Below, in pieces: positions 1 to 55,100 of a stretch of 64,000 nt of DNA; positions within the stretch are counted from its first letter, which is position 1; every line of letters begins with the position of its first letter. The notes under the pieces are model-generated. The model saw nothing but the letters and a program-made list of their open reading frames with translations, was not told the origin of the DNA and searched no databases. The position numbers and the translations under genes are program-made. Source of the stretch: Escherichia phage D6; sequence record NC_050154.1, one strand, 5' to 3'.

Positions 1-98
1 CAATTATTTAAAGTTATAAAATGCCGATTTTTTTTAATCCATCATAGATTGATGATGACCAGTAACACGTTGCCTTCATGGTCTTTAATTAGCGAAGT

Positions 99-127
99 GT
101 GGTTTCTACGGTTGGTTTTCTAAAATT
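99..127 (+). promoter_or_regulatory. Tandem operator-like motifs (tggtttctacgg, ggttttctaaaatt) about 100 bp upstream of the 227..1264 gene
   Basis: Shares the core TTTTCTAAC seen at 4630, 9075, 10323, 11366, 21267 and 54208; position matches the autoregulatory operators upstream of P1 c1. Confidence 0.4.
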
Positions 128-197
128 GATGACAAAAAATCACAGTTCGATCCTTTACTCACTCTGTTATTCGACATAAATTTGTCATAGTAATTTT

Positions 198-210
198 ATG
201 TTAGAAAACT
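198..210 (-). promoter_or_regulatory. Inverted copy of the operator-like motif (plus strand atgttagaaaact) 17 bp before the ATG at 227
   Basis: Reverse complement agttttctaacat matches the dispersed core; sits over the expected promoter/RBS region. Confidence 0.4.
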
Positions 211-226
211 AAATCGAGTAGGAATA

Positions 227-1264
227 ATGAGTAAGAAGTCGATCGAGAAAGAGTACAAACGGTTCCTGCAAACCGCTGAACGGTGGAAAGAGCTGGTGGT
301 CGCAAACTCTGTTTTCCATGATACCAGTTATGCTGGCGAGGAATTCCGCCATGTTGCATTAACGCATGACCAAAACATATTAGAAGAAGCTGAAAAATGT
401 CTTGCTGAATGGAAAGCCTTCGTTGACATGTGCCGCGATGCCGACGGCAAAGCGTCGAACATTGTTGAGTCTGTATATTCTCCGATCCCATTCATCATTG
501 AGGACACCAATCAAAGCACGCATGTCGTTGTGCAAAGCGCTACAACAACACGTACATTTACACGTGAACAATTGCTAAAAAAATACGACAAAATCATAAA
601 GAAAAGCCTGAAAAATAGGGTTTTTTCTCAAATCGTAGGTGCTCTTGAAGAAGAACAGCGCTTCTTTGAAGCTGAGCCTGAAGGCGAGATCTACCGGGCG
701 CGTAAAGAGGCATATACAGATGTTGTGCTGACAACAAACATCGAAGGCAGCAATGCCCTTTCTCGCTTTAGAGTTGGCGCACATGGCGCATTGGTTTTCG
801 CAAGACTACCGAAGACAACGATCCCCGTTGTCAATAATGTTGGTGAACGCCGGAGCATTACAATTTATTCTGGCGTCGAATCGGTACCTTGCAGCCTTCT
901 CGGCGATTTTAACTTATATCGTGTTCGTGACCTGGAAAAACACCAGCCAAGCTACGTTGCGAAGTCGTACATCTTAAGGAACATCGATATTCGCAATGAA
1001 AGCCTTAAGCAGAAATCCGCTAAGATGCTGGAGGATGCCGATCCGGCTATTCGCCATATCATTGAGCGTAAGATACGTACATCACGTGAAGCAATGGCAA
1101 GGCTGGATAAAATGGATCTGGAATTGTTAGACGTAATGATGGCCTCTGGAGACGACCTGACCGGCATTAAACTGAATGAAGCTCGTAAAAAATACGGCAA
1201 AGCAATCGAAGAACGTTACGGATACACATTCCCCCAAACGCAGTACGCCGCGAAGCTCTGGTAA
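227..1264 (+). CDS. Hypothetical 345-aa protein; candidate immunity repressor (c1-position analogue), function unproven
   Basis: ATG start; convergent with pacB as c1 is in P1; two operator-like motifs immediately upstream; no domain recognisable by eye. Confidence 0.4.
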   Translation: MSKKSIEKEYKRFLQTAERWKELVVANSVFHDTSYAGEEFRHVALTHDQNILEEAEKCLAEWKAFVDMCRDADGKASNIVESVYSPIPFIIEDTNQSTHVVVQSATTTRTFTREQLLKKYDKIIKKSLKNRVFSQIVGALEEEQRFFEAEPEGEIYRARKEAYTDVVLTTNIEGSNALSRFRVGAHGALVFARLPKTTIPVVNNVGERRSITIYSGVESVPCSLLGDFNLYRVRDLEKHQPSYVAKSYILRNIDIRNESLKQKSAKMLEDADPAIRHIIERKIRTSREAMARLDKMDLELLDVMMASGDDLTGIKLNEARKKYGKAIEERYGYTFPQTQYAAKLW

Positions 1265-1271
1265 TCACAAC

Positions 1272-1291
1272 CGGCCCCGCATCGCGGGGCT
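1272..1291. terminator. Bidirectional hairpin terminator between the convergent 227..1264 gene and pacB
   Basis: ccccgc-atc-gcgggg stem-loop followed by T-rich tract. Confidence 0.5.
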
Positions 1292-2800
1292 TTATATATC
1301 CAGATCCGGCATTTCGATATCCGCCAGAACCTGATCTCGGAAAGTTGCCATTTCGGCACCAATATCTTCATTAGCAGGCACATAGTCCACCAGCATAGTG
1401 AAGCAGTAGGTATCCCATCGGTCAGGCGATTTGATGTTTAGCTTTTGCCGCATGTGCTCTTTGCGCATCATCGCCATTTTCCCTTCTTCATTCAGTAAAA
1501 AGGGGATTTTTGACGCTTGCTCTGCCGTTTTAGGGTCACTGTCTATCCGCATACGCCCTGACTTTATGGCATCACGCGCCATAATATTTGCGTAGGCACG
1601 CTGATTAACAAATCGCTCCCTGTCTTTGTTCGCAAACATGGGTTTTCCCCACCGAATACGTACCGGGTTCGCACCACGACGCACCAACTGCGCACACGTA
1701 TCAGAACCAAAACCATCAGCATCAACCGCGATTGTTATATTCGGGTATTTTTCCGGCGTACATTCGTTATATATGAAGTCAGCAAAGGCCAATGGGTCCA
1801 TAGTGCCAGACATCTCCATTACCTTAAAGTTAACAACGCGCCGCTTATCCCTGTGACCTGATACCTTGCAGATGTTGAGGACCGACTTATCTCGCCCATT
1901 ACCAACGTCAGCCGTTGCCACCCATCCCCAGTTTTTCTCCAACAACACCTTGCGGCGAGCAGCGCGATCGCATTCATCACGACCAAGCAAATAGCCGTTA
2001 ATTTCTCGTGGGAACTGACCAAGCACCTTGACCATGTACTCAATAGAATCGCGCCCGCCATATTCCAGAAGCTTCTGCTTGATGAATTGTGGTGTGACGA
2101 ACGGTGATTCTTCCGAGTTAAGAACAATTGCTGTCCAGATCCCTTTCGGGTTGTCTGGGGTTTTTGCTTGAGAATGGTGCGAATCGTAGAAATAACCACT
2201 TGGCCTTGTTGGCTGGGATAGCATCAACATCCGGTTATCTTCTTCAGTAAGAGCACCGGTCATTACGCCGATCGCCTTATCAGATATACCAGATGCTTCA
2301 TCCAGAATTAGAAGCAAATGTGCCGCGTGTTCCCCCGCCAGCGCTTCTTCGTTGCCGAGTCGATAACCTTTGCAGAGAACTTCCCAAATCCCCTTACGGG
2401 AGCGCTCATAAAACATGGTGTCAGAGAGGACAAAATAGGTCTGCAACCACCCATGACGCTTAACTGCATTCGCCCAATACTGTTTAACGTATTTGAATAC
2501 GCCTGTTTTTACCTGGCCTATCTTGTTAGCAACAATGATGACACGGGCATCGGGGAACAGGATCATGAAAATCAACAGCAACATCGCGGTAAGGGACGAC
2601 TTCCCCGTTCCGTGTCCGGACGTGACGGTCGTCCTACTCCCCGTTTCCTGCACGGACTGAATGATCTGCTGCTGCTGGTGGGAGGGGAACATCCCAAAAA
2701 TATCGACAACAGCTTGGGTAAAGTTGTAGCGGTATTTGATTACCATATCGCGCCAGCGTGGATCGCTGGTGACGCATTTAATCTTGCGCCCTCCAGCCAT
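1292..2800 (-). CDS. pacB: Terminase large subunit (PacB-like)
   Basis: 502 aa; Walker A GHGTGKS; start ATG overlaps the upstream gene stop (TAATG); P1 PacB-like size. Confidence 0.85.
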   Translation of the reverse strand: MAGGRKIKCVTSDPRWRDMVIKYRYNFTQAVVDIFGMFPSHQQQQIIQSVQETGSRTTVTSGHGTGKSSLTAMLLLIFMILFPDARVIIVANKIGQVKTGVFKYVKQYWANAVKRHGWLQTYFVLSDTMFYERSRKGIWEVLCKGYRLGNEEALAGEHAAHLLLILDEASGISDKAIGVMTGALTEEDNRMLMLSQPTRPSGYFYDSHHSQAKTPDNPKGIWTAIVLNSEESPFVTPQFIKQKLLEYGGRDSIEYMVKVLGQFPREINGYLLGRDECDRAARRKVLLEKNWGWVATADVGNGRDKSVLNICKVSGHRDKRRVVNFKVMEMSGTMDPLAFADFIYNECTPEKYPNITIAVDADGFGSDTCAQLVRRGANPVRIRWGKPMFANKDRERFVNQRAYANIMARDAIKSGRMRIDSDPKTAEQASKIPFLLNEEGKMAMMRKEHMRQKLNIKSPDRWDTYCFTMLVDYVPANEDIGAEMATFRDQVLADIEMPDLDI

Positions 2801-4164
2801 TAATCATCCTCCGGCGGTTCTATCGCGATATCATCATCTCCGGCGTCATACCCTGCATCAGATGCATCATAATCACCGTAAATATCAGCCGTTGCCGAAG
2901 GGTCAATATCCAGCTCTTCGTCGTTGGCCTCGAATTCTCCAGCTTTACGCTCGCCATTGCGGTCGTAATCTCCGCACCCCAATTCTTCAACAATGGTTGC
3001 CACATCCGCCCGGCGCTCTGCCAGCCATTGCGGATGGTTAGCCTGAAGCGTCGCAAACTCCCTCGCCTCTTTGTCCAGCTGTTCATCATCAACATCATTG
3101 ACGTCAGAAACAGGTGGTTCGAGAAGAGTGATAGCTTTCGCCGCGCGCGCCGCGAGGATAGCCGGGACGCTGACCCCCTGGCGCTCGATGTATTCAGCAA
3201 CACCGATATCATCCAGTTCCTCGCGCTCACGCATACGTATAGCGGCGGCGATAACTCTGGCAGCGCGTGCGTCAGCGCCAATGCGATATTCAATCTCTTT
3301 GCCACGCTGTTCGGCCTGTAGGCGTGCTAATTCGAGTTTTTCTCTGGCCTCAGCCTCTTTGAATGCTTGCTGGCGAGCGCTCTGACGAAGCTTTTCATCC
3401 CCCTGTCGCAGCTTTTGTTCGGACTGATATATAGCTGCCAACCTACTGATAAAATCATTCATGTAGTAGGCCGCGTCACTGATTAGACCGAGAAGGCGCT
3501 GCCCAGGGTGCATTCCTTCTGGCTCTTTATCGCCCAAGGCGTCTATTTCCGCCTGTAGACGTTCGGCCTCCTGATCAACAATGCTTTGATACTGAAGTGC
3601 GCGCTCTTGCGCCATTTGAATTGCTAACCGCAGGTGTTCTTCTGCGCCGTTCTTCATCATATCGCGAGCCACATTCGTAGTGGGCAATGTGGCACGCTGC
3701 ACAGCACCGCCAGGGATCATTGCTGAAGATCCCTCAATTTTTGGGGCGCTTTTATCTTCTTCGGGGATCATTTTCGCCATTTTTTCGCGCAATGATCTCC
3801 TGACAGATTCTTTTATCTCATTGTTATTATTGGTATTACTTTCATGATCCGAAGTTTTCTTTCTTGGCATACTTCGGAAAGAACCTGCACCCTGCGAATT
3901 GTCAATTTCTGTAAATTTTGTTTTTTCTGCACCCTCTTCCAGCTTTTTTGTTGCTCTTCCCGCCCGTTTTTTTTCAGGTGATTTGGTGCTTTTTTTTGTT
4001 GTCTTTACCTGCGACCGCACCTCATTTTTTTTCATATTGAGATGCTTTCTGGCTGTATTGAAGCTAAGGCCATGCTCCTCACAGTATTCCTTTACAGTGA
4101 TCCCTTTTTCTTCACGCAACGCTATAAAGCGGGCGCGGTGCTCCTCCCAATTAACCAGACTCAT
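2800..4164 (-). CDS. pacA: Terminase small / pac-recognition subunit (PacA-like)
   Basis: 454 aa; N-terminal HTH-like segment (KEYCEEHGLSFNTARKHL); acidic C-terminus; translationally coupled to pacB. Confidence 0.55.
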   Translation of the reverse strand: MSLVNWEEHRARFIALREEKGITVKEYCEEHGLSFNTARKHLNMKKNEVRSQVKTTKKSTKSPEKKRAGRATKKLEEGAEKTKFTEIDNSQGAGSFRSMPRKKTSDHESNTNNNNEIKESVRRSLREKMAKMIPEEDKSAPKIEGSSAMIPGGAVQRATLPTTNVARDMMKNGAEEHLRLAIQMAQERALQYQSIVDQEAERLQAEIDALGDKEPEGMHPGQRLLGLISDAAYYMNDFISRLAAIYQSEQKLRQGDEKLRQSARQQAFKEAEAREKLELARLQAEQRGKEIEYRIGADARAARVIAAAIRMREREELDDIGVAEYIERQGVSVPAILAARAAKAITLLEPPVSDVNDVDDEQLDKEAREFATLQANHPQWLAERRADVATIVEELGCGDYDRNGERKAGEFEANDEELDIDPSATADIYGDYDASDAGYDAGDDDIAIEPPEDD

Positions 4165-4553
4165 AAAGCAACACCACGCTTTTTAACGGCGGCATTCCAC
4201 AGCTTATTCGCCATGTCCACCAGCTCTCGTTGCTCTTTTCGCGCCTGTTCGACTGATTTCCTGCTACAGTTTTTAACCAGTAAGCTACCGTATTCAGGCG
4301 TGCGCCCGCGCACCTTGAACTGATATCCGTTCAGACCATGTAGCCAGTATTTTCGTGGATACACACGATCATCCAGCTCACAGATTGCCCTGCTTGAACG
4401 AACAAAATGACGAATGATGTTAGTTACACTTACTCGTGAAACATGGAGATGAGGGTATTTTTCTTTGGCGAGAGTGGTAATTTCAGTGACTGTCAGATAG
4501 CAGTCAGCCCTGATCATGATATCCGCAATTTCTGCGCTGCTGATTTGTTCCAT
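4161..4553 (-). CDS. Hypothetical protein in the late-promoter-activator position (Lpa-like?)
   Basis: 130 aa; overlaps pacA start (ATGA); operator-like motif 77 bp upstream, as for C1-controlled lpa in P1. Confidence 0.3.
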   Translation of the reverse strand: MEQISSAEIADIMIRADCYLTVTEITTLAKEKYPHLHVSRVSVTNIIRHFVRSSRAICELDDRVYPRKYWLHGLNGYQFKVRGRTPEYGSLLVKNCSRKSVEQARKEQRELVDMANKLWNAAVKKRGVAL

Positions 4554-4629
4554 TAATCCCCCGGGCAGGAAATGACCGAGGGGATGATAATGAGAATGTT
4601 AAAACTGTATAGACTGGTAAAAAGATGAT

Positions 4630-4643
4630 TGTATTAGAAAATT
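4630..4643 (-). promoter_or_regulatory. Operator-like motif (plus strand tgtattagaaaatt) upstream of the 4161..4553 gene
   Basis: Read in the gene's direction it is aattttctaataca; ~30-bp block closely resembles the reverse complement of the site at 54208. Confidence 0.45.
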
Positions 4644-4661
4644 AATATTAAATACCTAATG

Positions 4662-5054
4662 CTACCAGCGAGACAAACGAACAACATGTTTCACTTTTGC
4701 GATCCACTTTCCGCGATAACTATTGATTACGGCCTGTGCCAGCTTCAAATTGGCTTCAAAATCAGCCTTACTACCATCAGACTCCACCAGCATTCCTCCA
4801 TCTATTTCTGGTAAACATAGATAATCCTGCTCAACCTGCAGCGGCATTGATGGCTCTCTGAATGGCGTTACTTGCTCTGCTTTCCAGCGAAATCTAACCC
4901 TCATCCCCCTGGTGGTCATTACTAGATAGCCTGTTATAGTGCTTTTATGGCCCACATCAGTACGCGTGGCATTGCATGACACGATCTTACAGTTAGCGAT
5001 AGACCACTCCATATTGGTGGCCTGTTGAGTGCTTAATTTGGTAGTCCCGTACAT
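4662..5054 (-). CDS. Hypothetical protein
   Basis: 130-aa ORF; overlaps the upstream gene by start/stop coupling. Confidence 0.35.
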   Translation of the reverse strand: MYGTTKLSTQQATNMEWSIANCKIVSCNATRTDVGHKSTITGYLVMTTRGMRVRFRWKAEQVTPFREPSMPLQVEQDYLCLPEIDGGMLVESDGSKADFEANLKLAQAVINSYRGKWIAKVKHVVRLSRW

Positions 5055-5629
5055 CAGAAAGCCTCCCAGTCAGTCGCGATAATATCCACACCAGTTGCAA
5101 ACCAGTCTGTCTGCGCCTGTAAATCACCATTCATCATTACCAGGCGAGGCATCACCATCACATCGCACCCTTCCACAATATCGAATGCCTCTTCCGGCAA
5201 GAATTCGAAGAGCTTTTCTTTGCTGCCAATGCTGCCACGGAACATCGATATATAGCTCCCTTTAGGCCATGATGTCCGCCGGGCATCAAGCCCTTTCATC
5301 ATCCAGTAAAAAGCCGAGGAAAAAGGGATATTCTTTTTGCCAATGATTACATTATTCGCTTCTGTGTACTTCAGGAACTTAACTAACCTTACCATTGACT
5401 CGGATAACGCAACGTATGGCTCATGATTGATTGCTGACACGCTTACACCGTGCAATCCAACGCTTACCACTGTCATATCGCCGCTCTGTGCGGTTTCGAT
5501 ATTGACGCCTTTGCGAACTAATGAGGCGTAAAGTTCCTCTCGCTTTTGGGTCCAGCGTTCACGCTTCCCTATGAAGTCACTCAAAATGAGATCTTCTTCT
5601 GCATATGCGTTATCGTTCGCCATTAACAT
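5054..5629 (-). CDS. Hypothetical protein
   Basis: 191-aa ORF with ATG start; no recognisable motif. Confidence 0.35.
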   Translation of the reverse strand: MLMANDNAYAEEDLILSDFIGKRERWTQKREELYASLVRKGVNIETAQSGDMTVVSVGLHGVSVSAINHEPYVALSESMVRLVKFLKYTEANNVIIGKKNIPFSSAFYWMMKGLDARRTSWPKGSYISMFRGSIGSKEKLFEFLPEEAFDIVEGCDVMVMPRLVMMNGDLQAQTDWFATGVDIIATDWEAF

Positions 5630-7696: not shown

Positions 7697-7772
7697 TGGT
7701 GCCGATTAACGGACTCGAACCGCTGACATCCTGCTTACAAGGCAGGCGCTCTACCAACTGAGCTAAACCGGC
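7697..7772 (-). tRNA. tRNA-Thr (anticodon TGT)
   Basis: Clean cloverleaf folded by hand: acceptor GCCGGTT/AATCGGC, anticodon stem CCTGC/GCAGG, loop CTTGTAA, T-loop TTCGAGT, encoded CCA. Confidence 0.9.
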
Positions 7773-7774
7773 AT

Positions 7775-7850
7775 TGGCGATGGTGGATGGATTTGAACCA
7801 TCGACCCGTTGATTAACAGTCAACCGCTCTAACCGCTGAGCTACACCATC
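7775..7850 (-). tRNA. tRNA-Asn (anticodon GTT)
   Basis: Clean cloverleaf: acceptor GATGGTG/CACCATC, anticodon stem GTTGA/TCAAC, loop CTGTTAA, T-loop TTCAAAT, encoded CCA. Confidence 0.9.
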
Positions 7851-8713: not shown

Positions 8714-8941
8714 AAGATGTGCATTGATGATTAGATGCAGCATGTACCGTTACTCTCTGCCGGACCATCATCAATGAACACCTTAAAAAGACCTTCCGTG
8801 GCTCAACATGTATTGTCGTTTACTCCGCAAAGTGCTCTCTCTGAAACCACTTTCCGCACTAAACCTGCTGAACTTTGGCCTGCACGGTGCCAAAGCGTGC
8901 TCTTGCATTACTATACTTTTCTAACACTTTAATTTGTTAAA

Positions 8942-9015: not shown

Positions 9016-9074
9016 AGGAAAATTCTATGTTAAGTTACCTTCACAATCAATACATTCGAATTGTGATTTTAGAT

Positions 9075-9087
9075 TTCTAACACATTA
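9075..9087 (+). promoter_or_regulatory. Operator-like motif (tttctaacacatt) at the 3' end of the 407-aa gene, facing the ORF-free hairpin region
   Basis: Core matches the dispersed motif; preceded by gtgatttta as at the 54208 site. Confidence 0.4.
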
Positions 9088-10308
9088 TTTCCCGTAAAGA
9101 TCTTCTACACCCCCATTATTCTTATCCCATTCGTTCGCCCATACCCGGCAAGCGTCAATGATTTCCTGACGACGATCTCCTTGCATGAACGGAATGCTTT
9201 CATGGAAACAGCTTGGAATGCAGGCCACACTGAATACAGTATCAAACTCCGTCTGCTTGATTGCCTCCAGCGTCTCCGGACGCATTTTTAATTCATCGAT
9301 TGGCGCATCCTTAGAGTCCATAATCCGGCGATATAAGCACGGAAAATCCGTCTCCAGGTACGCCATAATTTTATCTGCGAGACATTCGTCTATGTCGGTA
9401 TTCCAGTCCTTTTCGAAGCCCGGCAGGCGATAGTAAAGCGGCGTTCCCCATACCGATGGGATCACATCCATCGTTAACAGGCGATTGGTTCTGATTTGTT
9501 GATGGTAATTAGCCGTCAGCAGTGCTTCGCCACGCTGCCCAGTTTCCGCAACCAGGCCGTGCGGATACTCATGGATGTAGGCAATGGCATCCCGCCCATC
9601 ATACATAAGTGGAAATGTCTCTGGTCTTTGTCCCATGCCACAAGCACGGTTCAGATCGTGACCAAGCTGTGAGCACTCTCGCTTTAATGTTTCGATAATG
9701 CTCTGCGCTGTAGCCAACTTTTTACGCAGTGTGACGCCTTCGCCTTGATAATCAATGCATTGCTGATTGAGCTTGGTTAAACGCTCTTTTAGTTCCCGGC
9801 GCTCTCTTTTCAGCGTGCGGTTATCCTTCTCCGCAACATCCAGCCGCTTTGTCAGGCTTGGCGGATAGTCTTTTTTGTAACGGTTCAAATCGGCTTCGGC
9901 AGATTTACGCAGTGTATTTGCCTGTTCAAGACGCGCTTCCAGATTGCCGATCTCATTACGCATATTCGCGGCAAATTGATTAACTGCATCACCCAGGCTT
10001 TCAACTGTCGCTGATACGCCTGTGACTTGTGAAAAACGGATCAAGCCATCATTAACGGCTTGTTGGTATTCCTCAAACTGATCCACCAGCTTATTGTAAT
10101 CAACTGCCCCATCATCAAGCAGCTTGTTGATTTCCGCCACCAGGTTATCTGTAGTGGCAATGACACTCTCGTGCAGTCGCTTTGACAGGTCATCACCAGG
10201 ATTCCGTTTCTGTATAAGAGCGATTTGTGTGCGCAGCGTTTCAATTGCTGTCGAGATAATTTCCAGATTAGAAGTATCAGTGTGTTGACTCATTGCTGTT
10301 CCCGTCAC
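9085..10308 (-). CDS. Hypothetical coiled-coil protein with a C-terminal globular domain carrying an HExxH motif
   Basis: 407 aa; N-terminal ~200 aa heptad-rich; HEYPH in AIAYIHEYPHGLVAE; several conserved-looking Cys; operator-like motif ~15 bp upstream of the start. Confidence 0.4.
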   Translation of the reverse strand: MTGTAMSQHTDTSNLEIISTAIETLRTQIALIQKRNPGDDLSKRLHESVIATTDNLVAEINKLLDDGAVDYNKLVDQFEEYQQAVNDGLIRFSQVTGVSATVESLGDAVNQFAANMRNEIGNLEARLEQANTLRKSAEADLNRYKKDYPPSLTKRLDVAEKDNRTLKRERRELKERLTKLNQQCIDYQGEGVTLRKKLATAQSIIETLKRECSQLGHDLNRACGMGQRPETFPLMYDGRDAIAYIHEYPHGLVAETGQRGEALLTANYHQQIRTNRLLTMDVIPSVWGTPLYYRLPGFEKDWNTDIDECLADKIMAYLETDFPCLYRRIMDSKDAPIDELKMRPETLEAIKQTEFDTVFSVACIPSCFHESIPFMQGDRRQEIIDACRVWANEWDKNNGGVEDLYGK

Positions 10309-10322
10309 TTTGTTAAATTAGT

Positions 10323-10335
10323 TTTCTAACATATT
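10323..10335 (+). promoter_or_regulatory. Operator-like motif (ttttctaacatat) immediately upstream of the 407-aa gene start
   Basis: Core match; lies between the upstream terminator and the start codon. Confidence 0.45.
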
Positions 10336-10917: not shown

Positions 10918-11412
10918 TTAATCAAGACAAACATACTCCGTGATAGCTTTTATGGCTTCAGCGGCACTGCGCGCCTCAAAGCAGTAGTAACCGGCTTCTG
11001 TGAGGCGAGTCATCCAGACGAGTTGTTCGGGAGTCAGGCGATTTCTCCCATGTTTCATCTCAATGCGCATTCCGTGGTATCCCCCACAAGCAAGGTCTAT
11101 AGAAAGATCGGGATATCCCTTCTTTTGGCCCTCTGCCACCATTTTTATTGCCGTCCTTATGCCTCGCAGGCCACCGTTTGGAGTGGCGTGAGTATGCTCA
11201 TACACATAACGCATATTGCGATACATCCAGTCCAGGACGCGAACCTGCTCGTAATGCTCATGGTTCCTTTTGATTAGATCTGGGTTTTTCTCCAGTTCTC
11301 TAAGAGCTGCGGCATGTGGGGATGTTTCAGAATATTCACTGCGACGCCTTCTCTTTCGCGCTATTTTTCTAACACACCCATTGATAGTAAATATGCGAAA
11401 TAATAACAACAA
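10918..11412 (-). CDS. VRR-NUC domain nuclease-like protein (start codon uncertain)
   Basis: GYPDL ... LACGGYHGMRIEMK signature; an operator-like motif sits inside the annotated 5' end, so the true start is probably downstream. Confidence 0.55.
   Translation of the reverse strand: MLLLFRIFTINGCVRKIARKRRRRSEYSETSPHAAALRELEKNPDLIKRNHEHYEQVRVLDWMYRNMRYVYEHTHATPNGGLRGIRTAIKMVAEGQKKGYPDLSIDLACGGYHGMRIEMKHGRNRLTPEQLVWMTRLTEAGYYCFEARSAAEAIKAITEYVCLD
11366..11377 (+). promoter_or_regulatory. Operator-like motif (ttttctaacaca)
   Basis: Exact core match; upstream of the VRR-NUC coding core. Confidence 0.4.
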
Positions 11413-11548
11413 CGTTAGATTTGTAAAACAAGAGAGATACTACTCAAGGATGGTCTATATGCAACAGGTCGGATTTGCTTTTAGAGTAAAGAGCGACCTT
11501 AATCAACAAGGAGGGTAAATCGCATGGCATTTACCCAACCTGTTATTT

Positions 11549-11809
11549 TTAAAGGGTTATTTTATCCTGTTCGGATAATTCTTTGATTGTCTTGTCGATT
11601 GCGATCAACCAACCTTCATAGGTTAAATCATCAACAAGTTCTACCAACTTATCATCGGTGTGAGGAAAGTATATCCAGCTCCAGTTCGCAGGGTTTTCTG
11701 CTTTTCGCAGCGTAAAAACCTTCTTGTATCGGTGGAACTCAAGGATATACCCCTTCGATATGGAATATTCCTTTAGGTCTTCGACCGTAAACCTACGATT
11801 CTTTCGCAT
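11549..11809 (-). CDS. Hypothetical protein
   Basis: 86-aa ORF downstream of darB in the same orientation. Confidence 0.35.
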   Translation of the reverse strand: MRKNRRFTVEDLKEYSISKGYILEFHRYKKVFTLRKAENPANWSWIYFPHTDDKLVELVDDLTYEGWLIAIDKTIKELSEQDKITL

Positions 11810-19119: not shown

Positions 19120-19270
19120 AGGATTTCCCCCTCTAAACCGTAAAAAATTCCGCTATGCGGTACGGTTGAGAGGGTATGGAGAATGTTATTTTCAGGGGGA
19201 CGATACTACCGTCAAAATCACATACTCCCCATAGTTTGCCTACTTATTAACCCATGACCGGGAGAAAAAT

Positions 19271-20917: not shown

Positions 20918-20974
20918 AGTTACGGCCTCGTAAGTTGATAAACAACCTGCGACCCGCTGTCAAACAGGTGGCAG

Positions 20975-21015
20975 GACGTGACAGGGTTGACAGACTGGCA
21001 CTTACGAAACCAGCA
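20975..21015 (-). ncRNA. c4-like antisense RNA core (boundaries approximate)
   Basis: Transcript would carry CGUAAGU and CUGUCAA, complementary in the correct antiparallel order to two repeated target pairs (GUUUGACAG ... ACUUACG) at 21112..21134 and 20928..20965, the latter overlapping the icd-like RBS. Confidence 0.4.
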
Positions 21016-21266
21016 GGCCGAAGCCTCCCCATCACGCCCCACCATAATTCGGGCGTAACGTGGTTTTACGGACACAAAAATACCGCAATATCGGAAATGT
21101 GCGGTTGTCCGCGTAAGTATTCAGGCTGTCAAACCCGGTCGCAGAATTTGCTACGACGGCATGAATATAAGCCTGAAAACATGGAAGATCAACTAAAAAT
21201 TTCAGCAATGGATGACTTCAGTCGATGATGCAGATCATACATTCCGATTTAGAAACAGCAAATTAA

Positions 21267-21284
21267 TTTTCTAACACAAATCAT
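21267..21284 (+). promoter_or_regulatory. Operator-like motif (ttttctaacacaaatcat) upstream of the c4/icd/ant-like operon
   Basis: 18-bp identity with the site at 54208..54225. Confidence 0.5.
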
Positions 21285-21330
21285 CGAGCGAGCATTTTCC
21301 GATCATTGGGATGTTTTGTAGACACACAGG

Positions 21331-22293
21331 TCATCCCCTAAATCCCGCAGGGATTGACCAATCCTCACGGTCAAATTCAGACCGATAGCCACGCTGTTTC
21401 ATCAGGTCAAAGGCTTCACCAATGGTTGCACACCCCTGGGAGCCAGAATAATCCATTGAGAAATCCAGGGCACTGGATTGTTTAGGCTTATTCACTGCGG
21501 TAGCGGCACTACGTATCCATGCAAATTTTTTTGCCAGCTTTTCAGCGGTACGATACAGAGCCTGCCGTTTTGCGTGCCCCTCGTCTGAACGACGCTTTGC
21601 AGCTCTCGCTTTTGCCGCCGCCAGGCAGTGGTTGGTATGTTCTTCCCTGATTACTGGTTTTTTATCCAGTACCACGTTATCCGTTTGAGAACTATCTGCT
21701 GGTGAAGCCTTTGGCTGAACCGCGCATGATCTTTCTCTTCTTTTGGCTATAGAGTGACTCTTATTTTCTATTGGCTGTTCATTTTGAACATGGGGGGACT
21801 TGTTCAATTTGAACAGGGGGTTCCCAGTTTCAAAAAAATAACGAACCTTTGAAATCAACTGCTTAACCAGTTTTGTGGCGTTGGCAAATTTGATGCCCTG
21901 CTTACCCCCTATCTCCATTGCTACATGAATGAAGTGGAGAAATTGTGTCGTAAACCGATATACGTTACACACCTGGGCATTGTTATTCGCTACCTGATGT
22001 TGCTTAACAAGCATTCCGCACTTCGTCGCTTCAGTAAATGCCCGGCGCACAGTAGAAATACTGCGCCCTGTAATCTCAGACATATCAGCATATGAGCGAC
22101 GGATCATGTATTCATCGGTAGCCCCTGCAAGGTTGGCGAACTCGGCAATAATGGCGCTATGTGAAGGGGAAAGAAGACCGCTATGACGAGCAAAAAAACT
22201 CAACTGATGACCTTTGATTTTTTTGTGGTATTCAGTGTTGTTTTTATACTCAGAAGTGTTGAAAGTTACTGAAACTGAATTTAAAATATTCAC
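21331..22293 (-). CDS. HTH-containing hypothetical protein (possible replication or regulatory protein)
   Basis: 320 aa; HTH-like MSEITGRSISTVRRAFTEATKCGML; basic C-terminal half. Confidence 0.3.
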   Translation of the reverse strand: MNILNSVSVTFNTSEYKNNTEYHKKIKGHQLSFFARHSGLLSPSHSAIIAEFANLAGATDEYMIRRSYADMSEITGRSISTVRRAFTEATKCGMLVKQHQVANNNAQVCNVYRFTTQFLHFIHVAMEIGGKQGIKFANATKLVKQLISKVRYFFETGNPLFKLNKSPHVQNEQPIENKSHSIAKRRERSCAVQPKASPADSSQTDNVVLDKKPVIREEHTNHCLAAAKARAAKRRSDEGHAKRQALYRTAEKLAKKFAWIRSAATAVNKPKQSSALDFSMDYSGSQGCATIGEAFDLMKQRGYRSEFDREDWSIPAGFRG

Positions 22294-22354
22294 CAGATAG
22301 TTCCGTGAAAAAATCTATCTACCGTATAAATCTATGCCAGTGGATTTATACACC

Positions 22355-22388
22355 AAAAAGCCGCTTCTCAGCGGCTTTTGCTTTTTTT
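22355..22388. terminator. Bidirectional rho-independent terminator downstream of the protease gene
   Basis: gccgc-ttctca-gcggc followed by T-run; A-run upstream. Confidence 0.6.
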
Positions 22389-22493
22389 GGCAATCGCTAC
22401 CGGAGCAGTGACCGCGATCCTACTCGATCACATCGGACAGGATCAACAGTGTATATAAATACACTATGTTAGCAATTTAATTTCATACAGCGG

Positions 22494-25188: not shown

Positions 25189-25272
25189 GAATCACCGCAA
25201 ATTGTTTCCAGTTTTGCGGCAGCATAATCAGTATGTGATTTGATAGGAGAGTTTTATTGGTGCTGTTAATGA

Positions 25273-27709: not shown

Positions 27710-27791
27710 CTATAGAGAAAGCTGTGAGTGTAAAAAGAGTGTGATTTATGTGAGAACAGAGAAGTGAAAGGGGCATTTCACCCCCTTTTGA

Positions 27792-31478: not shown

Positions 31479-31556
31479 ACCCCTCCAGAAATAACATCTA
31501 ATGCGCCACTAACTTAGTCAGTTTGTTATTTCCTTACAGGACATCTTCTAGAATCT

Positions 31557-38076: not shown

Positions 38077-38170
38077 ACGAACATAGCTCCTTCATAAGCA
38101 ATGAACCAAAGGAGAGTATGCTCAGTTTGTGATTTCCGTTGTTCTTCCCCCAAATGCGGGGGAGGAATTA

Positions 38171-45452: not shown

Positions 45453-45698
45453 TTATTCCTCCGAAAAGCAGGTATCTGTTCATTTTCCAGAGGATAGGGA
45501 GTGTGTGATTTGCGATGGGGATTGAATGAAGATCTTTGCCGGTCGAGAAGCGATTATTGAGGGTGATTTTTACACCTTAAGTGACGCTACTCACATATCC
45601 ACAGAGTATTTTTATAAACCTTTTTCCATTTTTAATCCTTTTTAGATCCTTTTTAGGCGTCGCTGGAGCCAGTAGTGGCGCGGGCTGTAGAGGAGGCT

Positions 45699-45816
45699 GG
45701 TGTAAGATTTGCCCTCAATTAAATACGATCGGTGTAAGATTTGCCCTCAAAAGGTGTAAGATTTGCCCTCAAAAGGTGTAGTAATTGCCCTCAAAGTGAT
45801 GTAAAAATTGCCCTCA
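45699..45816 (+). repeat. Five direct ~20-bp iterons upstream of repA (origin / incC-like)
   Basis: ggtgtaagatttgccctcaa x3 then ggtgtagtaattgccctcaa and gatgtaaaaattgccctca, at ~22-bp spacing. Confidence 0.8.
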
Positions 45817-45840
45817 CCATTTGAAGGATCACACAGGGTT

Positions 45841-46596
45841 ATGAACAGAGCGGAATTAACAGCAAAAGCCGTCAGCCTGATTGAGTCAGCGACACCTATT
45901 AGTCGTAGTTTGGCACAAGCCAATGAGATCACGGAGGCTGCTTATCACCTGACTCGCGACCAAAAGCGACTGTTGTTTATTGTGGTGGGAAGACTTCGCT
46001 ATGCTTCTAAGGATGGCGTTCTTGGTTCAGGTGCCTGTGAGTTGACGGTCAACGAATATGCAGAGATGTATAATTTGCCCTCTGCTGAAGCCAGCAAGGA
46101 TATTCGTAAGGCCATTTCAGGTCTTAGCGAGAAGAAAGTTACGATATATAACCCTGATGAATCGACCGAATCAGAAGACAGTTATGAGTCTTATCCTTGG
46201 ATGATTAAGGATGCCTATTCACCACGGCGCGGGACTTACATTATTCATCTTAATCCATATCTCATGCCGTTTTTTACTCTGCTTGATAAGAGATTCACAA
46301 GGCTGAATTTTACCGAAGTATCTCGCCTTACAAATCCTTATTCTATGCGGCTTTATGAGTCCTTATGCCAGTACAGGAAGGATGATGGAAGCGGCTTTGC
46401 CATACTTGGCGTCGAATGGATGCGGGAGCGTTATGGGTTACCAAAAAGCTATCAGCGGTATGCCGAATTTAAGAGAAGTTTTTTAACGAAGGCTGTAGCA
46501 GAGATTGAAAAAAATACAAAAATGAAAATAGTCTTCTCAGAGGTGACGGAAGGCGGCAAAGTTACCAGGATAAAATTTACCTATCAGCAGTCTTAA
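45841..46596 (+). CDS. repA: Iteron-binding plasmid replication initiator (RepA-type)
   Basis: 251 aa from the first ATG (track ORF begins at an upstream TTG inside the last iteron); flanked by iterons on both sides as in the P1 R replicon, but different iteron sequence. Confidence 0.6.
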   Translation: MNRAELTAKAVSLIESATPISRSLAQANEITEAAYHLTRDQKRLLFIVVGRLRYASKDGVLGSGACELTVNEYAEMYNLPSAEASKDIRKAISGLSEKKVTIYNPDESTESEDSYESYPWMIKDAYSPRRGTYIIHLNPYLMPFFTLLDKRFTRLNFTEVSRLTNPYSMRLYESLCQYRKDDGSGFAILGVEWMRERYGLPKSYQRYAEFKRSFLTKAVAEIEKNTKMKIVFSEVTEGGKVTRIKFTYQQS

Positions 46597-52376: not shown

Positions 52377-54074
52377 TCACTTTTTTTCGTTAACCTTGCC
52401 TGTCAGCATGTCGATAGCACCTTCTTTGGCACGAGTCAGACGCAGGCGGGTGAAGTAGTTTTCACCGTTGCGAGGATGTACTTCGTTGATGGCACTGCCC
52501 CAGAGAGTGGTACGGTTAACGAGAGACGGATTGGTTTCGTGCACGTAAGGGATTGCTGGGACTGCATCACCAGCAATCAGACCGGCTTTACCGATGCCTT
52601 CGCCACGCCCATAGAAGAAGATGTCATCCAGCCCGAAGTCATATCCCTGTGCCTGGAATTGCTCACAGACAGGTTGCGGCACTTCGTAAATACGAATCGT
52701 GCCAAACAGGGTGCCGATGTACTGTACATACGGCGACTGAACGTAACCTGGTGCGATCTGGAAGTGCTGTGGAGGCAGAGAGCGCAGGAAGTTCGCGGCG
52801 TCACCACCAGCAAAGCCGCCACGAATACCCGTTGTCAGGGTACGATTTGCCATTTCTTGAGACAGAGCGTTTACTACGTGACGCAGGAGGCCGACCCAGG
52901 ACTCATAGTTTTGAGCTTCCGGCAGAGCCACATCAAATTCACGACCATAAACGGTATGGAATACCAGGGTGCGCAGACGCATGATGTCGGTTTCATGGGA
53001 GATCCAGTTACGCATCGCGGAGAACTGAAGTGCCGCTAATTCAAGGCCGTGCTCACGGCTTAAATCGGATGCGGACATTACCGTGTGTTCGGAAGCAATT
53101 ACGTACTGGGACGGACGAACTTCGTACTTACGCATAGCCTGGTTGATCACCGGAATCAGGCTTGGATTGCGCTCGATGTTAATTTCGACCTGAACAGCAA
53201 TTTCAGTACCTTCTGGCGGAGCCTGGGTAAATGTAATGTCAATGACACCAGTGTCATAGGCAACTTTGGCAGTCGCTGAGAAAGCATTACCTTTGCTGTC
53301 TTTAGCATTGAAATAAAGGTTGCCATCGCCGTCGTCAACTTTGGACGGTTTGCGGTTGATCAGCAGTTTGTTATAACCAGCGCGAAGCGGGCAGGATTGT
53401 CCCTCAAAATTTTGGATGTCGAACTGGAAGGTTTTGGTGCTGCCATCCCCTTTAGTGGAAAGGGTATACAGGCGCTTCATTTGAGAATAAACACCAGCTG
53501 ACTGCATATTCAGTTCGTCACCTTGTTTGAAGGTGCCGAATTTTGTGCCTGCTACGTTGACCAGTTCATAAATATTTGACTCGTCACGATCACAAGGAAC
53601 AAAAGTACAGGCATCACTGGTAGCAGCGCCCAGAGAGGCAGGCAGAATTAGAGCAGCATATTGAGCAACTTTCATTACGCCGTCAGAGCTACGCATTGAT
53701 TGCGCGACAGACTCAAACATTGCCTTACCCGTGCCTTCATGGGTATCACTGGCACATTCAGTCATCAAGCGTTCAAGAGCCATGTGTGCGTTCGCCAGGA
53801 TGTCACTTGCCGGGTAATGACCATGTTGACGTTTATACTCATGCAGAGACATAGCCCACCCACCAGTGATCTGACGAGCGACCTCTGGATTTACGCCTTC
53901 AAACATAGGCACTTTCTGGATTGCTTTATCCAGGTTTTCCATCATTACTGCCTGGTCAGCAATCATGTTTCCTGCTGCATCGGTGGTCGGATCGACGGTC
54001 ATAGCCATGACGCTTGCCGCCCGATTCATAATCTCGCGCTCGCGATCACGAGCTGGCTGAATGTTTTTATTCAC
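52377..54074 (-). CDS. Major capsid-like protein
   Basis: 565 aa (~62 kDa), as for P1 gp23 precursor; first gene of the head/sheath operon. Confidence 0.4.
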   Translation of the reverse strand: MNKNIQPARDREREIMNRAASVMAMTVDPTTDAAGNMIADQAVMMENLDKAIQKVPMFEGVNPEVARQITGGWAMSLHEYKRQHGHYPASDILANAHMALERLMTECASDTHEGTGKAMFESVAQSMRSSDGVMKVAQYAALILPASLGAATSDACTFVPCDRDESNIYELVNVAGTKFGTFKQGDELNMQSAGVYSQMKRLYTLSTKGDGSTKTFQFDIQNFEGQSCPLRAGYNKLLINRKPSKVDDGDGNLYFNAKDSKGNAFSATAKVAYDTGVIDITFTQAPPEGTEIAVQVEINIERNPSLIPVINQAMRKYEVRPSQYVIASEHTVMSASDLSREHGLELAALQFSAMRNWISHETDIMRLRTLVFHTVYGREFDVALPEAQNYESWVGLLRHVVNALSQEMANRTLTTGIRGGFAGGDAANFLRSLPPQHFQIAPGYVQSPYVQYIGTLFGTIRIYEVPQPVCEQFQAQGYDFGLDDIFFYGRGEGIGKAGLIAGDAVPAIPYVHETNPSLVNRTTLWGSAINEVHPRNGENYFTRLRLTRAKEGAIDMLTGKVNEKK

Positions 54075-54207
54075 GGTTAAGCCCTAAATTCGGGCGCGGC
54101 GTGAAGGTTCTTTTGACGGGCTAACAATACCTACTTTGTGATTTAGTCAATAGGTTTAGTAAAATAAAATCTATTAACACTCATGTTGTTATGTGATTTA
54201 ATTTTGG

Positions 54208-54225
54208 TTTTCTAACACAAATCAT
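54208..54225 (+). promoter_or_regulatory. Operator-like motif (ttttctaacacaaatcat) 8 bp upstream of the 54233 start
   Basis: 18-bp identity with the site at 21267; preceded by gtgattta. Confidence 0.5.
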
Positions 54226-54232
54226 TAGAGTT

Positions 54233-54625
54233 ATGGCGTATCGAATCTTTGTTTCGTATAAAAATGGCGCTAAGAGCCACTCTCTGAACACAACAAGTCG
54301 CTTTCTTGTTGAGGCGCAGTTGGCATCAATTCTTGCCGAAAGTGAGATACTCTCGCTCGCTGAACGGATCGTTATCCAGTTTTCTGGTAGAGATATACTC
54401 AATGCCCCCGCCCTCACTCCGGCCTCCGAAGTTATGGAATCAATTAAATGGCCTGTATGCGGATGTCCTGCCAGGGTTGAAGAGCCGGTAACAGCAACGC
54501 TCTACATGCCGAAAGCAGTAAGAGATTGGCTTGCTATGGTTGGTAATGGGAAAGTCAGTGCTGGACTTCGCAAGTTAATTGAAATGGCAGATATTCCTGA
54601 GTTAAAAAATGCATGGCGACAATGA
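54233..54625 (+). CDS. Hypothetical protein, possible DNA-binding C-terminus
   Basis: 130 aa; ATG start; CGCP motif; C-terminal KAVRDWLAMVGNGKVSAGLRKLIEMA. Confidence 0.35.
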   Translation: MAYRIFVSYKNGAKSHSLNTTSRFLVEAQLASILAESEILSLAERIVIQFSGRDILNAPALTPASEVMESIKWPVCGCPARVEEPVTATLYMPKAVRDWLAMVGNGKVSAGLRKLIEMADIPELKNAWRQ

Positions 54626-54641
54626 GTAAACAAGGGACAAA

Positions 54642-55100
54642 ATGAGTCACGTTAACCCATCAAAAACACAATATCGCTTAATGCTGGCGATCGCGTCAGC
54701 TATACCAACCAGCCTGAATCCCCCGGCAGGCTATCCCGCTGTTGTTGATGATTGTTTTCAGTATTACGGAGAAGACATCCTGAGCCAGTCAAAAGCGCTC
54801 AAGCAGTTATGTAAGGCAGGTATTCTTCACTGTATCGGAGATCCGGACGATTTTGTTGTTATGCTGGCGGATCGTGACTCTTTTCTACTGTCCTGGAAAG
54901 CTGGTGCGCGCGAAGCACGTTTGGGGAATGGTATTGGTTACATAGACTATAGCGATTGTCCGCTGGCATTTGCTGGTGGATATATGCATTGGCATGAGCG
55001 AAATAGGGGCCGTCAGCGTCAGTATCGTTTGAGTGACTTTAACGTCTGTCACGGTTTCGAAGAAGCTGACAGCCAGGACATCTGGCTTCAGGAGCCTTGA
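54642..55100 (+). CDS. Hypothetical protein
   Basis: 152-aa ORF 17 bp downstream of the previous gene. Confidence 0.35.
   Translation: MSHVNPSKTQYRLMLAIASAIPTSLNPPAGYPAVVDDCFQYYGEDILSQSKALKQLCKAGILHCIGDPDDFVVMLADRDSFLLSWKAGAREARLGNGIGYIDYSDCPLAFAGGYMHWHERNRGRQRQYRLSDFNVCHGFEEADSQDIWLQEP

What the first reader, a model, noticed from the sequence alone, without database searches (positions are those of the whole stretch)
99..210. Dispersed operator-like motif RTTTTCTAACAYA at eight or more sites, two of them in front of the repressor-position gene
The same core occurs at 99..127 (tandem), 198..210 (inverted), 4630..4643 (inverted, before the lpa-position gene), 9075..9087, 10323..10335, 11366..11377, 21267..21284 and 54208..54225. 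The last two share 18 identical bp. The sites are intergenic and occur in both orientations relative to the adjacent gene, which fits a repressor operator better than a promoter element. P1 scatters C1 operators in the same way, but its consensus (ATTGCTCTAATAAATTT, from memory) is different, so this element would have its own immunity specificity. The motif also marks the unknown genes at 9085..10308, 10918..11412 and 54233..55100 as members of the same regulon.
Basis: seen in the sequence. Interest (0 to 1): 0.6.

Follow-up and report, generated by a model that had tools for sequence, protein, structure and literature searches.

The report
Phage D6 repressor operator sites
The repeated TTTTCTAACA motif is real and is most likely the set of binding sites through which phage D6's own C1-type repressor silences its early genes, the D6 counterpart of the well-known scattered C1 operators of phage P1 but with a different sequence; it is a sound but unsurprising annotation.

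Summary
The window is phage D6, starting in its rox site (1..4924 is 100% identical to the D6 immC record). The motif is real. An 18-bp asymmetric element, WTTWRTTTTCTAACAYAW, occurs at 8 strong and 3 weak sites in the window, all intergenic. TTTCTAACAC is the most enriched 10-mer. A near-identical D6-like plasmid has 19 sites, none of them in 83.5 kb of coding DNA.

The sites precede c1, lpa, c4-icd-ant, repL, pmgS and pmgM. Outside the window they precede ref, mat and hrdC-dmt. These are the units that experimentally defined C1 operators control in P1.

P1-type operators are absent from D6, and D6-type sites are absent from P1. The D6 C1 protein is a distant homologue of P1 C1 (21% identity; its relatives hit Pfam PF27008).

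The 10-bp core is invariant at orthologous positions in relatives whose C1 is only 44-78% identical. At the pmgS site the orientation is flipped. A separate motif, AAATCACAnACT, marks the late operons, which excludes the late-promoter rival.

Binding by C1 is inferred, not shown. The D6 genome paper could not be read, so prior description is possible. This is a new member of a known kind, of modest interest.

The parts
227..1264 (+). c1, the candidate repressor (345 aa)
   Evidence: Annotated c1 in the D6 immC record AY753669. 21% identical to P1 C1 over 240 aa, E 2e-8. Relatives hit PF27008 Phage_P7_repressor_C1.
196..213 (-). Proximal c1 operator, 27.0 bits, 14 nt before the c1 ATG
   Evidence: TGTTAGAAAA here is the only 10-column invariant run in the c1 upstream alignment of six lineages.
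111..128 (+). Distal c1 operator, weak in D6 (11.5 bits)
   Evidence: A better-matching site occupies the same position in relatives L006, L007 and L013.
4629..4646 (-). Operator upstream of lpa (4161..4553, -), 24.5 bits
   Evidence: lpa matches PF25716. A predicted promoter TATACA-16-TATCAT at 4611..4584 lies just downstream. Sites sit at the same place in L006, L008 and L009. The P1 equivalent is Olpa.
8912..8929 (+). Operator in the leader of the leftward tRNA/tciA transcription unit, 21.6 bits
   Evidence: tRNAs lie at 7700-7850(-). The identical 18-mer is at the orthologous place in L006.
9068..9085 (+). Operator 17 nt upstream of the predicted promoter TTGATT-17-TAGAAT (9050..9022, -), 25.7 bits
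   Evidence: By position it corresponds to P1 Oban, which heads the tRNA-tci-ban operon.
10317..10334 (+). Operator covering the predicted start site of the pmgS homologue (9085..10293, -), 26.2 bits
   Evidence: PmgS homology. The orthologous site in L006 is in the opposite orientation. The P1 equivalents are OpmgRa/b.
11360..11377 (+). Operator downstream of the strongest predicted promoter of the first 12 kb, before the pmgM/VRR-NUC gene (10918..11295, -), 21.2 bits
   Evidence: 57% identical to P1 pmgM.
11414..11431 (+). Weak operator (14.4 bits) overlapping the -35 TTTACA of that promoter (11427..11400, -)
21262..21279 (+). Operator abutting the -35 of a promoter (TTGCTG-16-TATGAT) upstream of c4 RNA, icd and ant, 27.1 bits
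   Evidence: c4 RNA is at 20964-21049(-) and its a1b1 targets at 21118-21170(-). The P1 equivalent is Oc4. The c4 module is about 89% identical to P1, but the operator region is replaced.
22464..22481 (-). Weak site (14.0 bits in D6, 19-19.5 bits in related plasmids) 171 nt upstream of repL (21331..22293, -)
   Evidence: It lies beside three GATC sites, as P1 OrepL/PkilA does. A terminator-like hairpin lies between it and repL, so its target is uncertain.
54203..54220 (+). Operator 13 nt before the ATG of the unknown gene 54233..54625, in the divergent region shared with the capsid gene 52377..54074(-), 26.2 bits
   Evidence: Conserved in LR890273. The flanking proteins fall only in PHROGs families of unknown function.

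Best explanation
The motif is the operator of the phage D6 C1 repressor. D6 C1 (227..1264) is a distant homologue of the P1/P7 C1 repressor. It most likely recognises an asymmetric site of about 18 bp, WTTWRTTTTCTAACAYAW.

About 20 copies are scattered over the roughly 91-kb genome. Eleven lie in this window: 8 strong and 3 weak. Each lies in an intergenic region next to, over or just downstream of a predicted sigma-70 promoter.

In a lysogen, bound C1 would block transcription of the following units:
- its own gene (autoregulation at 196-213 and 111-128);
- the late-gene activator lpa;
- the c4-icd-ant antirepressor operon;
- the lytic replication gene repL;
- pmgS and pmgM;
- the tRNA/tci unit;
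- outside the window, ref, mat and hrdC-dmt.

Because the sequence differs from the P1 operator (ATTGCTCTAATAAATTT; only the TCTAA core and two downstream A's are shared), D6 and P1 repressors should not cross-repress.

Shown here: the motif, its statistics, its intergenic placement, its conservation, the homology of C1 and the orthology of the flanking genes. Inferred: that C1 is the binding protein, the exact promoter positions, and repression as the outcome.
For: 1. The motif is far above chance and exclusively intergenic.

2. A matrix trained on the 8 window sites finds 9 further strong sites in the part of plasmid CP055626 that lies outside the window. All are intergenic.

3. Regulon-level positional orthology with P1. 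D6-type sites precede c1, lpa, c4-icd-ant, repL, pmgS, pmgM, the tRNA/tci unit, ref, mat and hrdC-dmt. In the P1 record, annotated C1 operators precede the same units.

4. Reciprocal exclusivity. P1-type operators number 21 in P1 and 0 in D6. D6-type sites number 19 in the D6-like plasmid and 0 in P1. The total is similar to P1's 22.

5. D6 C1 is homologous to P1 C1, and its clade hits PF27008.

6. Phylogenetic footprint. In five further lineages with C1 only 44-78% identical, the core is kept before c1, lpa, pmgS, VRR-NUC and DUF968. In the c1 upstream alignment, TGTTAGAAAA is the only invariant run. In plasmid LR890273, sites carry 12.1% substitutions against 21.0% in the flanks (P 1.3e-4).

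7. Orientation independence. Sites occur in both orientations. The pmgS site is flipped between D6 and L006. Eight independent inverted pairs share one fixed geometry, with site starts 18 bp apart.

8. The c4-icd module is about 89% identical to P1 from its promoter onward, yet exactly the operator region is exchanged.
Against: No binding or expression data exist here; the link between motif and C1 is by analogy and co-occurrence.

No homologue of the P1 co-repressor Lxc was detected at the lxc position. There is also no room for a coi gene upstream of c1, so the accessory circuitry differs from P1.

The motif core stays the same across C1 proteins as divergent as 44% identity. No fine co-variation of repressor and operator was therefore seen within the clade.

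Some sites lie 17 nt or more from the nearest predicted promoter hexamer (lpa, 9068). One (22464) is separated from repL by a terminator-like hairpin.

The reverse complement TGTTAGAAA looks like an extended -10, so part of the conservation could reflect promoter function.
Confidence: 0.8

Rival explanations
1. The motif is a core promoter element. Read on the other strand it is TGTTAGAAAA, an extended -10 (TGnTAgAAa) shared by D6 early promoters, and no repressor is involved.
For: TGTTAGAAA fits TGn plus a 4-of-6 match to the -10 hexamer. At c1, pmgS, pmgM, c4 and the tRNA unit this strand points towards the gene. At c1 it would leave a 5' untranslated region of about 12 nt with a Shine-Dalgarno sequence.
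Against: Promoter elements are directional. At lpa, repL and 54233 the motif points the other way. The pmgS site is flipped in L006. Eight inverted pairs share a fixed 18-bp register. At pmgM, the tRNA unit and c4, better-scoring promoters lie beside the site rather than in it. Conservation covers 10 or more contiguous bases plus a TTA arm, well beyond what a -10 needs. P1 operators likewise overlap promoter hexamers, so the resemblance is expected of an operator.
Confidence: 0.07
2. The motif binds a different D6-clade regulator rather than C1. Candidates are another phage DNA-binding protein encoded outside the window, or an early activator.
For: The C1-motif link is indirect. The C1 model shows no known DNA-binding fold. 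D6-like plasmids encode other annotated DNA-binding proteins.
Against: The sites replace P1 C1 operators one-for-one at about ten orthologous units, including c1 itself. The motif follows the D6-type C1 clade in every lineage examined. In each short contig carrying a D6-type c1 (L008, L009 and L010), a site sits directly before c1.
Confidence: 0.1
3. The motif is an Lpa-dependent late-promoter element.
For: On the minus strand at 54209-54227 the site overlaps a weak match (13.5 bits) to the P1 late-promoter matrix, and it faces the capsid gene.
Against: The sites precede c1, lpa itself, c4-icd-ant and repL, which are early or immunity genes. A distinct motif, AAATCACAnACT, is present 7 times against 1.5 expected. 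It lies in the correct orientation 35-60 nt before the lysozyme-like, portal, holin, tail-fibre, pmgB and capsid genes, plus one unannotated gene ending at 27709. These include the genes where P1 has late promoters. D6 Lpa is 31% identical to P1 Lpa, which fits a related but altered box.
Confidence: 0.02

Closest known systems
C1 repressor and its dispersed operators (Op/O sites) of phages P1 and P7 (ImmC immunity)
   Same: The repressors are homologous (21% identity; PF27008 in the D6 clade). The operator is asymmetric and about 17-18 bp long. About 20 copies are scattered in intergenic regions of a phage-plasmid of about 90 kb. The same transcription units are targeted (c1, lpa, c4-icd-ant, repL, ref, mat, hrdC-dmt, pmgS, pmgM, the tRNA/tci unit). 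Operators overlap or abut promoter hexamers. Both single and paired sites occur. The TCTAA core is shared.
   Different: The consensus is WTTWRTTTTCTAACAYAW against ATTGCTCTAATAAATTT, and neither matrix finds a site in the other genome. Paired D6-clade sites are back-to-back with starts exactly 18 bp apart, so the cores are about 20 bp apart; P1 Obanab is two overlapping inverted 17-mers. No Lxc homologue and no coi gene were detected. D6 C1 is 62 aa longer. At c4 the site has the opposite orientation and lies about 30 nt further upstream than P1 Oc4.
Lambda-type CI/Cro operators
   Same: A prophage repressor silences lytic promoters and autoregulates its own gene.
   Different: From general knowledge: lambda operators are dyad-symmetric, bound by dimers, and clustered at two loci beside the repressor gene. 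The D6 sites are asymmetric and spread over the whole genome.
P1 Lpa-dependent late promoters (-22 box AAGTGACTT plus -10)
   Same: A short conserved element repeated in intergenic regions of the same genome.
   Different: It has a different sequence and a fixed orientation, and it lies in front of late operons. D6 has its own candidate version (AAATCACAnACT) at those places, separate from the operator motif.

Membership tests
P1/P7-type C1 repressor-operator immunity system | Repressor homologous to P1/P7 C1 | tested here: met
   BLASTP against P1 C1: 21% identity over 240 aa, E 2e-8. Relatives 44-99% identical carry precomputed PF27008 Phage_P7_repressor_C1. The local Pfam copy lacks that model and gave no hit.
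P1/P7-type C1 repressor-operator immunity system | About 20 asymmetric operators of about 17 bp, dispersed in intergenic regions | tested here: met
   11 sites in the window and 19 sites of at least 14 bits in CP055626, all intergenic. The logo from 54 distinct sites is asymmetric. P1 has 22 operators.
P1/P7-type C1 repressor-operator immunity system | Operators match the P1 consensus ATTGCTCTAATAAATTT (same immunity specificity) | tested here: not met
   The P1 operator matrix finds 21 hits in P1 and 0 in the D6 window or CP055626. D6 therefore works like P1 ImmC but is not of P1/P7 specificity.
P1/P7-type C1 repressor-operator immunity system | Operators precede c1 itself and the early lytic units (lpa, repL, c4-icd-ant, ref, mat, dmt, pmg genes) | tested here: met
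   Orthology by tblastn/BLASTP, Rfam and PHROGs, compared with the P1 operator annotation.
P1/P7-type C1 repressor-operator immunity system | Operators overlap or abut promoters | tested here: inconclusive
   Consensus scans place sites over or next to predicted hexamers at c4, pmgS and pmgM. The sites are 17 nt from the -35 at lpa and at 9068. No start-site data are available.
P1/P7-type C1 repressor-operator immunity system | Accessory factors Lxc (co-repressor) and Coi (inactivator) | tested here: not met
   The ORF at the lxc position (11549..11809) has no similarity to P1 Lxc. Only 226 bp lie between rox and c1, and no coi is annotated there. Sequence-level search only.
P1/P7-type C1 repressor-operator immunity system | Antirepressor module c4 RNA-icd-ant under C1 control | tested here: met
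   Rfam C4 and c4-a1b1 hits. icd is 61% identical to P1 icd. ant matches PHROG 63. A site lies 92 nt upstream of a1b1.
P1/P7-type C1 repressor-operator immunity system | Specific binding of C1 to the sites and repression in vivo | not testable with these tools
   Needs EMSA or footprinting, ChIP-seq, and reporter assays.
Lpa-dependent late promoters | Conserved -22 box plus -10, in fixed orientation upstream of late operons | tested here: not met
   The motif lies before early or immunity genes in both orientations. A separate motif occupies the late-promoter positions.
Sigma-70 extended -10 promoter element | Fixed orientation and distance relative to the transcribed gene | tested here: not met
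   Both orientations occur, the orthologous pmgS site is flipped, and inverted pairs exist.

The most novel reading that the evidence does not exclude
The D6 clade of C1 proteins has no structural neighbour among solved structures. It may recognise a long asymmetric site of about 18 bp through a DNA-binding fold not yet described. The operator may also double as the extended -10 (TGTTAGAAA) of many early promoters. Promoter and operator would then be one module, which could be re-oriented or paired in a fixed 20-bp (two-turn) register to tune repression. In that case the D6 and P1 operators (shared TCTAA core, different flanks) would be a tractable natural pair for mapping how specificity evolves in an uncharacterised repressor fold.
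Probability: 0.2. Interest if true: 0.5.

Novelty: new member of a known kind. Interest (0 to 1): 0.33.

Why it matters
- **Immunity specificity.** The result gives the immunity specificity and the probable C1 regulon of phage D6 and of the widespread D6-like phage-plasmids. At least 120 such plasmids of E. coli, Salmonella and Shigella are in PLSDB.
- **Co-existence with P1.** It offers a sequence-level reason why D6 and P1 repressors would not cross-repress.
- **Repressor evolution.** It shows that the whole operator set was exchanged while the regulon architecture, and even an immI module about 89% identical to P1's, was kept. This is a clean example of repressor-operator co-evolution.
- **Synthetic biology.** It supplies a second C1-type repressor-operator pair predicted to be orthogonal to P1's.
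- **Annotation.** It assigns regulatory context to unknown genes such as 54233..55100.

None of this overturns current understanding.

Tried and rejected
- **Literature.** The D6 genome paper (Gilcrease & Casjens 2018), the D6 immC paper (Sauer & McDermott 2004) and the P1 genome paper are not held. Full-text searches for the motif, and for 'phage D6' together with operator, repressor or immunity terms, found no description of D6 operators. The complete D6 record MF356679 is not in the phage collection. Prior description therefore cannot be excluded.
- **Local Pfam on C1.** No hit, because the local copy lacks PF27008.
- **Solved structures.** No sequence homologue of C1.
- **Lxc.** No similarity at the syntenic ORF.
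- **Profile search for more distant C1 relatives.** It added only one protein.
- **P1 late-promoter matrix on D6.** Only weak hits, which led to the de novo late-promoter motif instead.
- **Palindromic binding site.** The GTT....AAC symmetry inside the core is not supported, because the first position is not conserved.
- **Host-factor sites (from memory, not tested).** The IHF, LexA and DnaA consensus sequences do not fit the motif.

Full report
**Identity of the window**

Bases 1..4924 are 100% identical to the GenBank record 'Enterobacteria phage D6 immC region'. That record annotates c1 at 227..1264(+), pacB at 1292..2800(-), pacA at 2800..4164(-) and lpa at 4161..4553(-). The window begins inside the rox site of the Dre recombinase.

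The rest of the window is 94.6-100% identical to a complete D6-like plasmid, CP055626, apart from a few insertions and deletions. I used that plasmid as an annotated proxy for the whole genome.

**The observation**

- RTTTTCTAACAYA occurs exactly 4 times, against 0.04 expected.
- An unbiased enumeration ranks TTTCTAACAC as the most enriched 10-mer of the window.
- Aligning eight sites shows information over about 18 bp: WTTWRTTTTCTAACAYAW.
- A weight matrix built from these eight gives 10 hits of at least 14 bits, against 0.68 expected in simulated sequence.

The sites in the window are:

| Class | Coordinates |
|---|---|
| Strong | 196-213(-), 4629-4646(-), 8912-8929(+), 9068-9085(+), 10317-10334(+), 11360-11377(+), 21262-21279(+), 54203-54220(+) |
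| Weak | 111-128(+), 11414-11431(+), 22464-22481(-) |

The same matrix finds nine further strong sites in the part of CP055626 that lies outside the window. These played no part in training.

All 19 sites of at least 14 bits in that plasmid are intergenic, although only 12.5% of it is non-coding (binomial P 7e-18). A control that simulates only intergenic DNA with an order-2 Markov model expects 0.23 hits, and 17 are seen. The 83.5 kb of coding DNA has none. The 'tandem' at 99..127 reduces to one weak site.

**What the sites lie next to**

Flanking genes were identified with Pfam, PHROGs, Rfam and BLAST against P1.

In the window the sites precede:
- c1 itself;
- lpa (PF25716);
- a leftward unit carrying tRNAs and tciA;
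- a full-length PmgS homologue (9085..10293);
- a PmgM homologue with a VRR-NUC domain (10918..11295);
- the c4 antisense RNA, icd and ant operon (c4 at 20964-21049, its a1b1 targets at 21118-21170);
- repL;
- an unknown gene pair at 54233..55100.

Outside the window the sites precede homologues of ref, mat and hrdC-dmt, a DUF968 gene, and the operon downstream of dre.

The richly annotated P1 record lists C1 operators before the same units: Oc1, Olpa, Oc4, OrepL, Oref, Omat, Odmt, OpmgR and Oban. O26 and Oppp flank pmgL-pmgM. About ten transcription units therefore carry a P1-type operator in P1 and a D6-type site in D6.

**Relation to the P1 operator**

The fifteen annotated P1 operators confirm the consensus ATTGCTCTAATAAATTT. 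A matrix built from them finds 21 sites in P1 and none in D6 or CP055626. The D6 matrix finds none in P1. The two consensus sequences share only TCTAA and two downstream A's.

D6 C1 aligns with P1 C1 over 240 residues at 21% identity (E 2e-8). All its database relatives carry the Pfam family Phage_P7_repressor_C1.

The c4-icd module shows the exchange most clearly. From the proximal c4 promoter onward, D6 and P1 are about 89% identical. Immediately upstream the similarity ends: P1 has Oc4 there, and D6 has its own site in the opposite orientation.

**Conservation**

Five further lineages encode C1 proteins 78, 69, 51, 48 and 44% identical to D6 C1, and a sixth, at 48%, came from a metagenome. 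Their contigs are syntenic with D6. All keep the TTTTCTAACA core at these positions:
- about 15-25 nt before c1, always in the same orientation;
- at a second site about 85-100 nt further upstream;
- where the contig extends far enough, before lpa, pmgS, the VRR-NUC gene and DUF968, and after the integrase gene.

In an alignment of six c1 upstream regions with 55% mean column identity, TGTTAGAAAA is the only run of invariant columns.

The diverged plasmid LR890273 has 21 hits of at least 12 bits. The CP055626 sites tested are retained there at orthologous places. Substitutions are 12.1% within the 18-mers against 21.0% in the 100-nt flanks (Fisher P 1.3e-4). By my reading of the alignments, the 10-bp core is almost unchanged.

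**Operator or promoter element**

The reverse complement, TGTTAGAAA, resembles an extended -10, and at several genes it points towards the gene. Four observations argue for a protein-binding site rather than a directional promoter element:
- The motif points the other way at lpa, repL and 54233.
- The pmgS site is flipped between D6 and lineage L006.
- Eight independent inverted pairs in relatives share one fixed geometry, with the two 18-mers abutting, so the cores are about 20 bp apart.
- Better-scoring promoters lie beside the sites: TTTACA-16-TGnTATTAT is flanked by the two pmgM sites, TTGCTG-16-TATGAT abuts the c4 site, and TTCCGA-17-TAAAAT lies just upstream of the pmgS site.

P1 operators overlap promoter hexamers in the same way.

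**Late-promoter rival**

The P1 late-promoter matrix (AAGTGACTT-N4-TAnnAT) gives only weak hits in D6. A second intergenic motif, AAATCACAnACT, occurs 7 times against 1.5 expected. Every copy is correctly oriented, 35-60 nt before a late gene: the lysozyme-like, portal, holin, tail-fibre, pmgB and capsid genes, plus one unannotated gene. D6 Lpa is 31% identical to P1 Lpa. The late promoters are therefore a separate element, and this rival is rejected.

**Mechanism, and what remains inferred**

The best-supported reading is that C1 binds these sites and represses the adjacent promoters, autoregulating c1 and holding lpa, ant and repL off in the lysogen, as C1 does in P1 (mechanism summarised in PMC8546580). 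Binding by C1, the true start sites and repression itself are all inferred.

Several differences from P1 were found:
- No Lxc homologue at the lxc position.
- No coi gene upstream of c1.
- A different geometry of paired sites.
- A longer C1 protein.

**Novelty**

Dispersed C1 operators are textbook P1 biology, and a different specificity is what one would expect of so diverged a repressor. I could not read the D6 genome paper, and the searchable literature holds no description of D6 operators. I therefore rate this as a new member of a known kind, with a real chance that it is already described. Interest is modest.

Noticed in passing
window 19215-19226(+), 25230-25241(-), 27736-27747(-), 31520-31531(-), 38124-38135(-), 45500-45511(-), 54133-54144(-): A second conserved intergenic motif, AAATCACAnACT, occurs 7 times against 1.5 expected. 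Each copy is oriented towards, and lies 35-60 nt before, a late gene (lysozyme-like, portal, holin, R/S tail fibre, pmgB, capsid, and one unannotated gene ending at 27709). These are candidate Lpa-dependent late promoters of D6, related to but different from the P1 -22 box AAGTGACTT.
   Followed up: partly
window 21177-21300 versus P1 48110-48290 (L005:110-290): There is a mosaic boundary here. The c4-icd module is about 89% identical to P1 from the proximal c4 promoter onward, but similarity stops just upstream, exactly where the operators differ. A weak extra TTTCTAA half-site (about 21244-21256, -) lies in the spacer of the distal promoter.
   Followed up: partly
CP055626 44404-44439, 63075-63110, 81969-82004; LR890273 30034-30069, 33814-33849, 59084-59119; L008 5051-5086; L009 4711-4746: Inverted operator pairs always have the same geometry: a (-) 18-mer immediately followed by a (+) 18-mer, with cores about 20 bp apart. 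This differs from the overlapping bivalent P1 operator Obanab. The pair upstream of rdgC/hrdC would lie just past the window end, near position 64113.
   Followed up: partly
window 21267-21284 and 54208-54225: These two sites share 18 identical bases (TTTTCTAACACAAATCAT), which extends the motif by AAATCAT. The extension is not kept in plasmid LR890273, so it is probably lineage-specific. On the minus strand at 54209-54227 it gives a weak match to the P1 late-promoter matrix.
   Followed up: partly
window 22416-22444: Three GATC sites lie within 30 bp next to the site upstream of repL, as at P1 PkilA/OrepL, which is annotated with three Dam sites. A terminator-like hairpin (about 22350-22385, -) lies between this region and repL.
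   Followed up: no
whole window: The Chi sequence GCTGGTGG occurs 31 times against 1.7 expected.
   Followed up: no
window 45709-45817 and 46593-46660: TTGAGGGCAA is repeated five times, successive copies 22-32 bp apart (four of the five 22-23 bp apart), just upstream of and overlapping the start of repB (45808..46596). Three more copies follow the gene. These are probably RepB iterons of the plasmid origin.
   Followed up: no
window 5054-5629(-): The gene two positions upstream of lpa, next after 4662-5054(-), carries a Tad2-like (Thoeris anti-defence 2) domain, E 1e-9. The same domain is present in the syntenic genes of relatives.
   Followed up: no
window 11549-11809(-): The 86-aa ORF at the position of P1 lxc (downstream of darB and ulx) has no detectable similarity to Lxc. 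It falls in a PHROG of unknown function. A non-homologous co-repressor cannot be excluded.
   Followed up: partly
[not shown]
   Followed up: partly
window 137-144(-), 9062-9069(+), 54192-54199(+): TGTGATTT, the reverse complement of AAATCACA from the late-promoter box, lies directly beside three operator sites (111-128, 9068-9085, 54203-54220). Whether this reflects combined C1 and Lpa control, as at P1 Omat/LPmat and O26/LP26, is unknown. The copy at c1 is not conserved in relatives.
   Followed up: no
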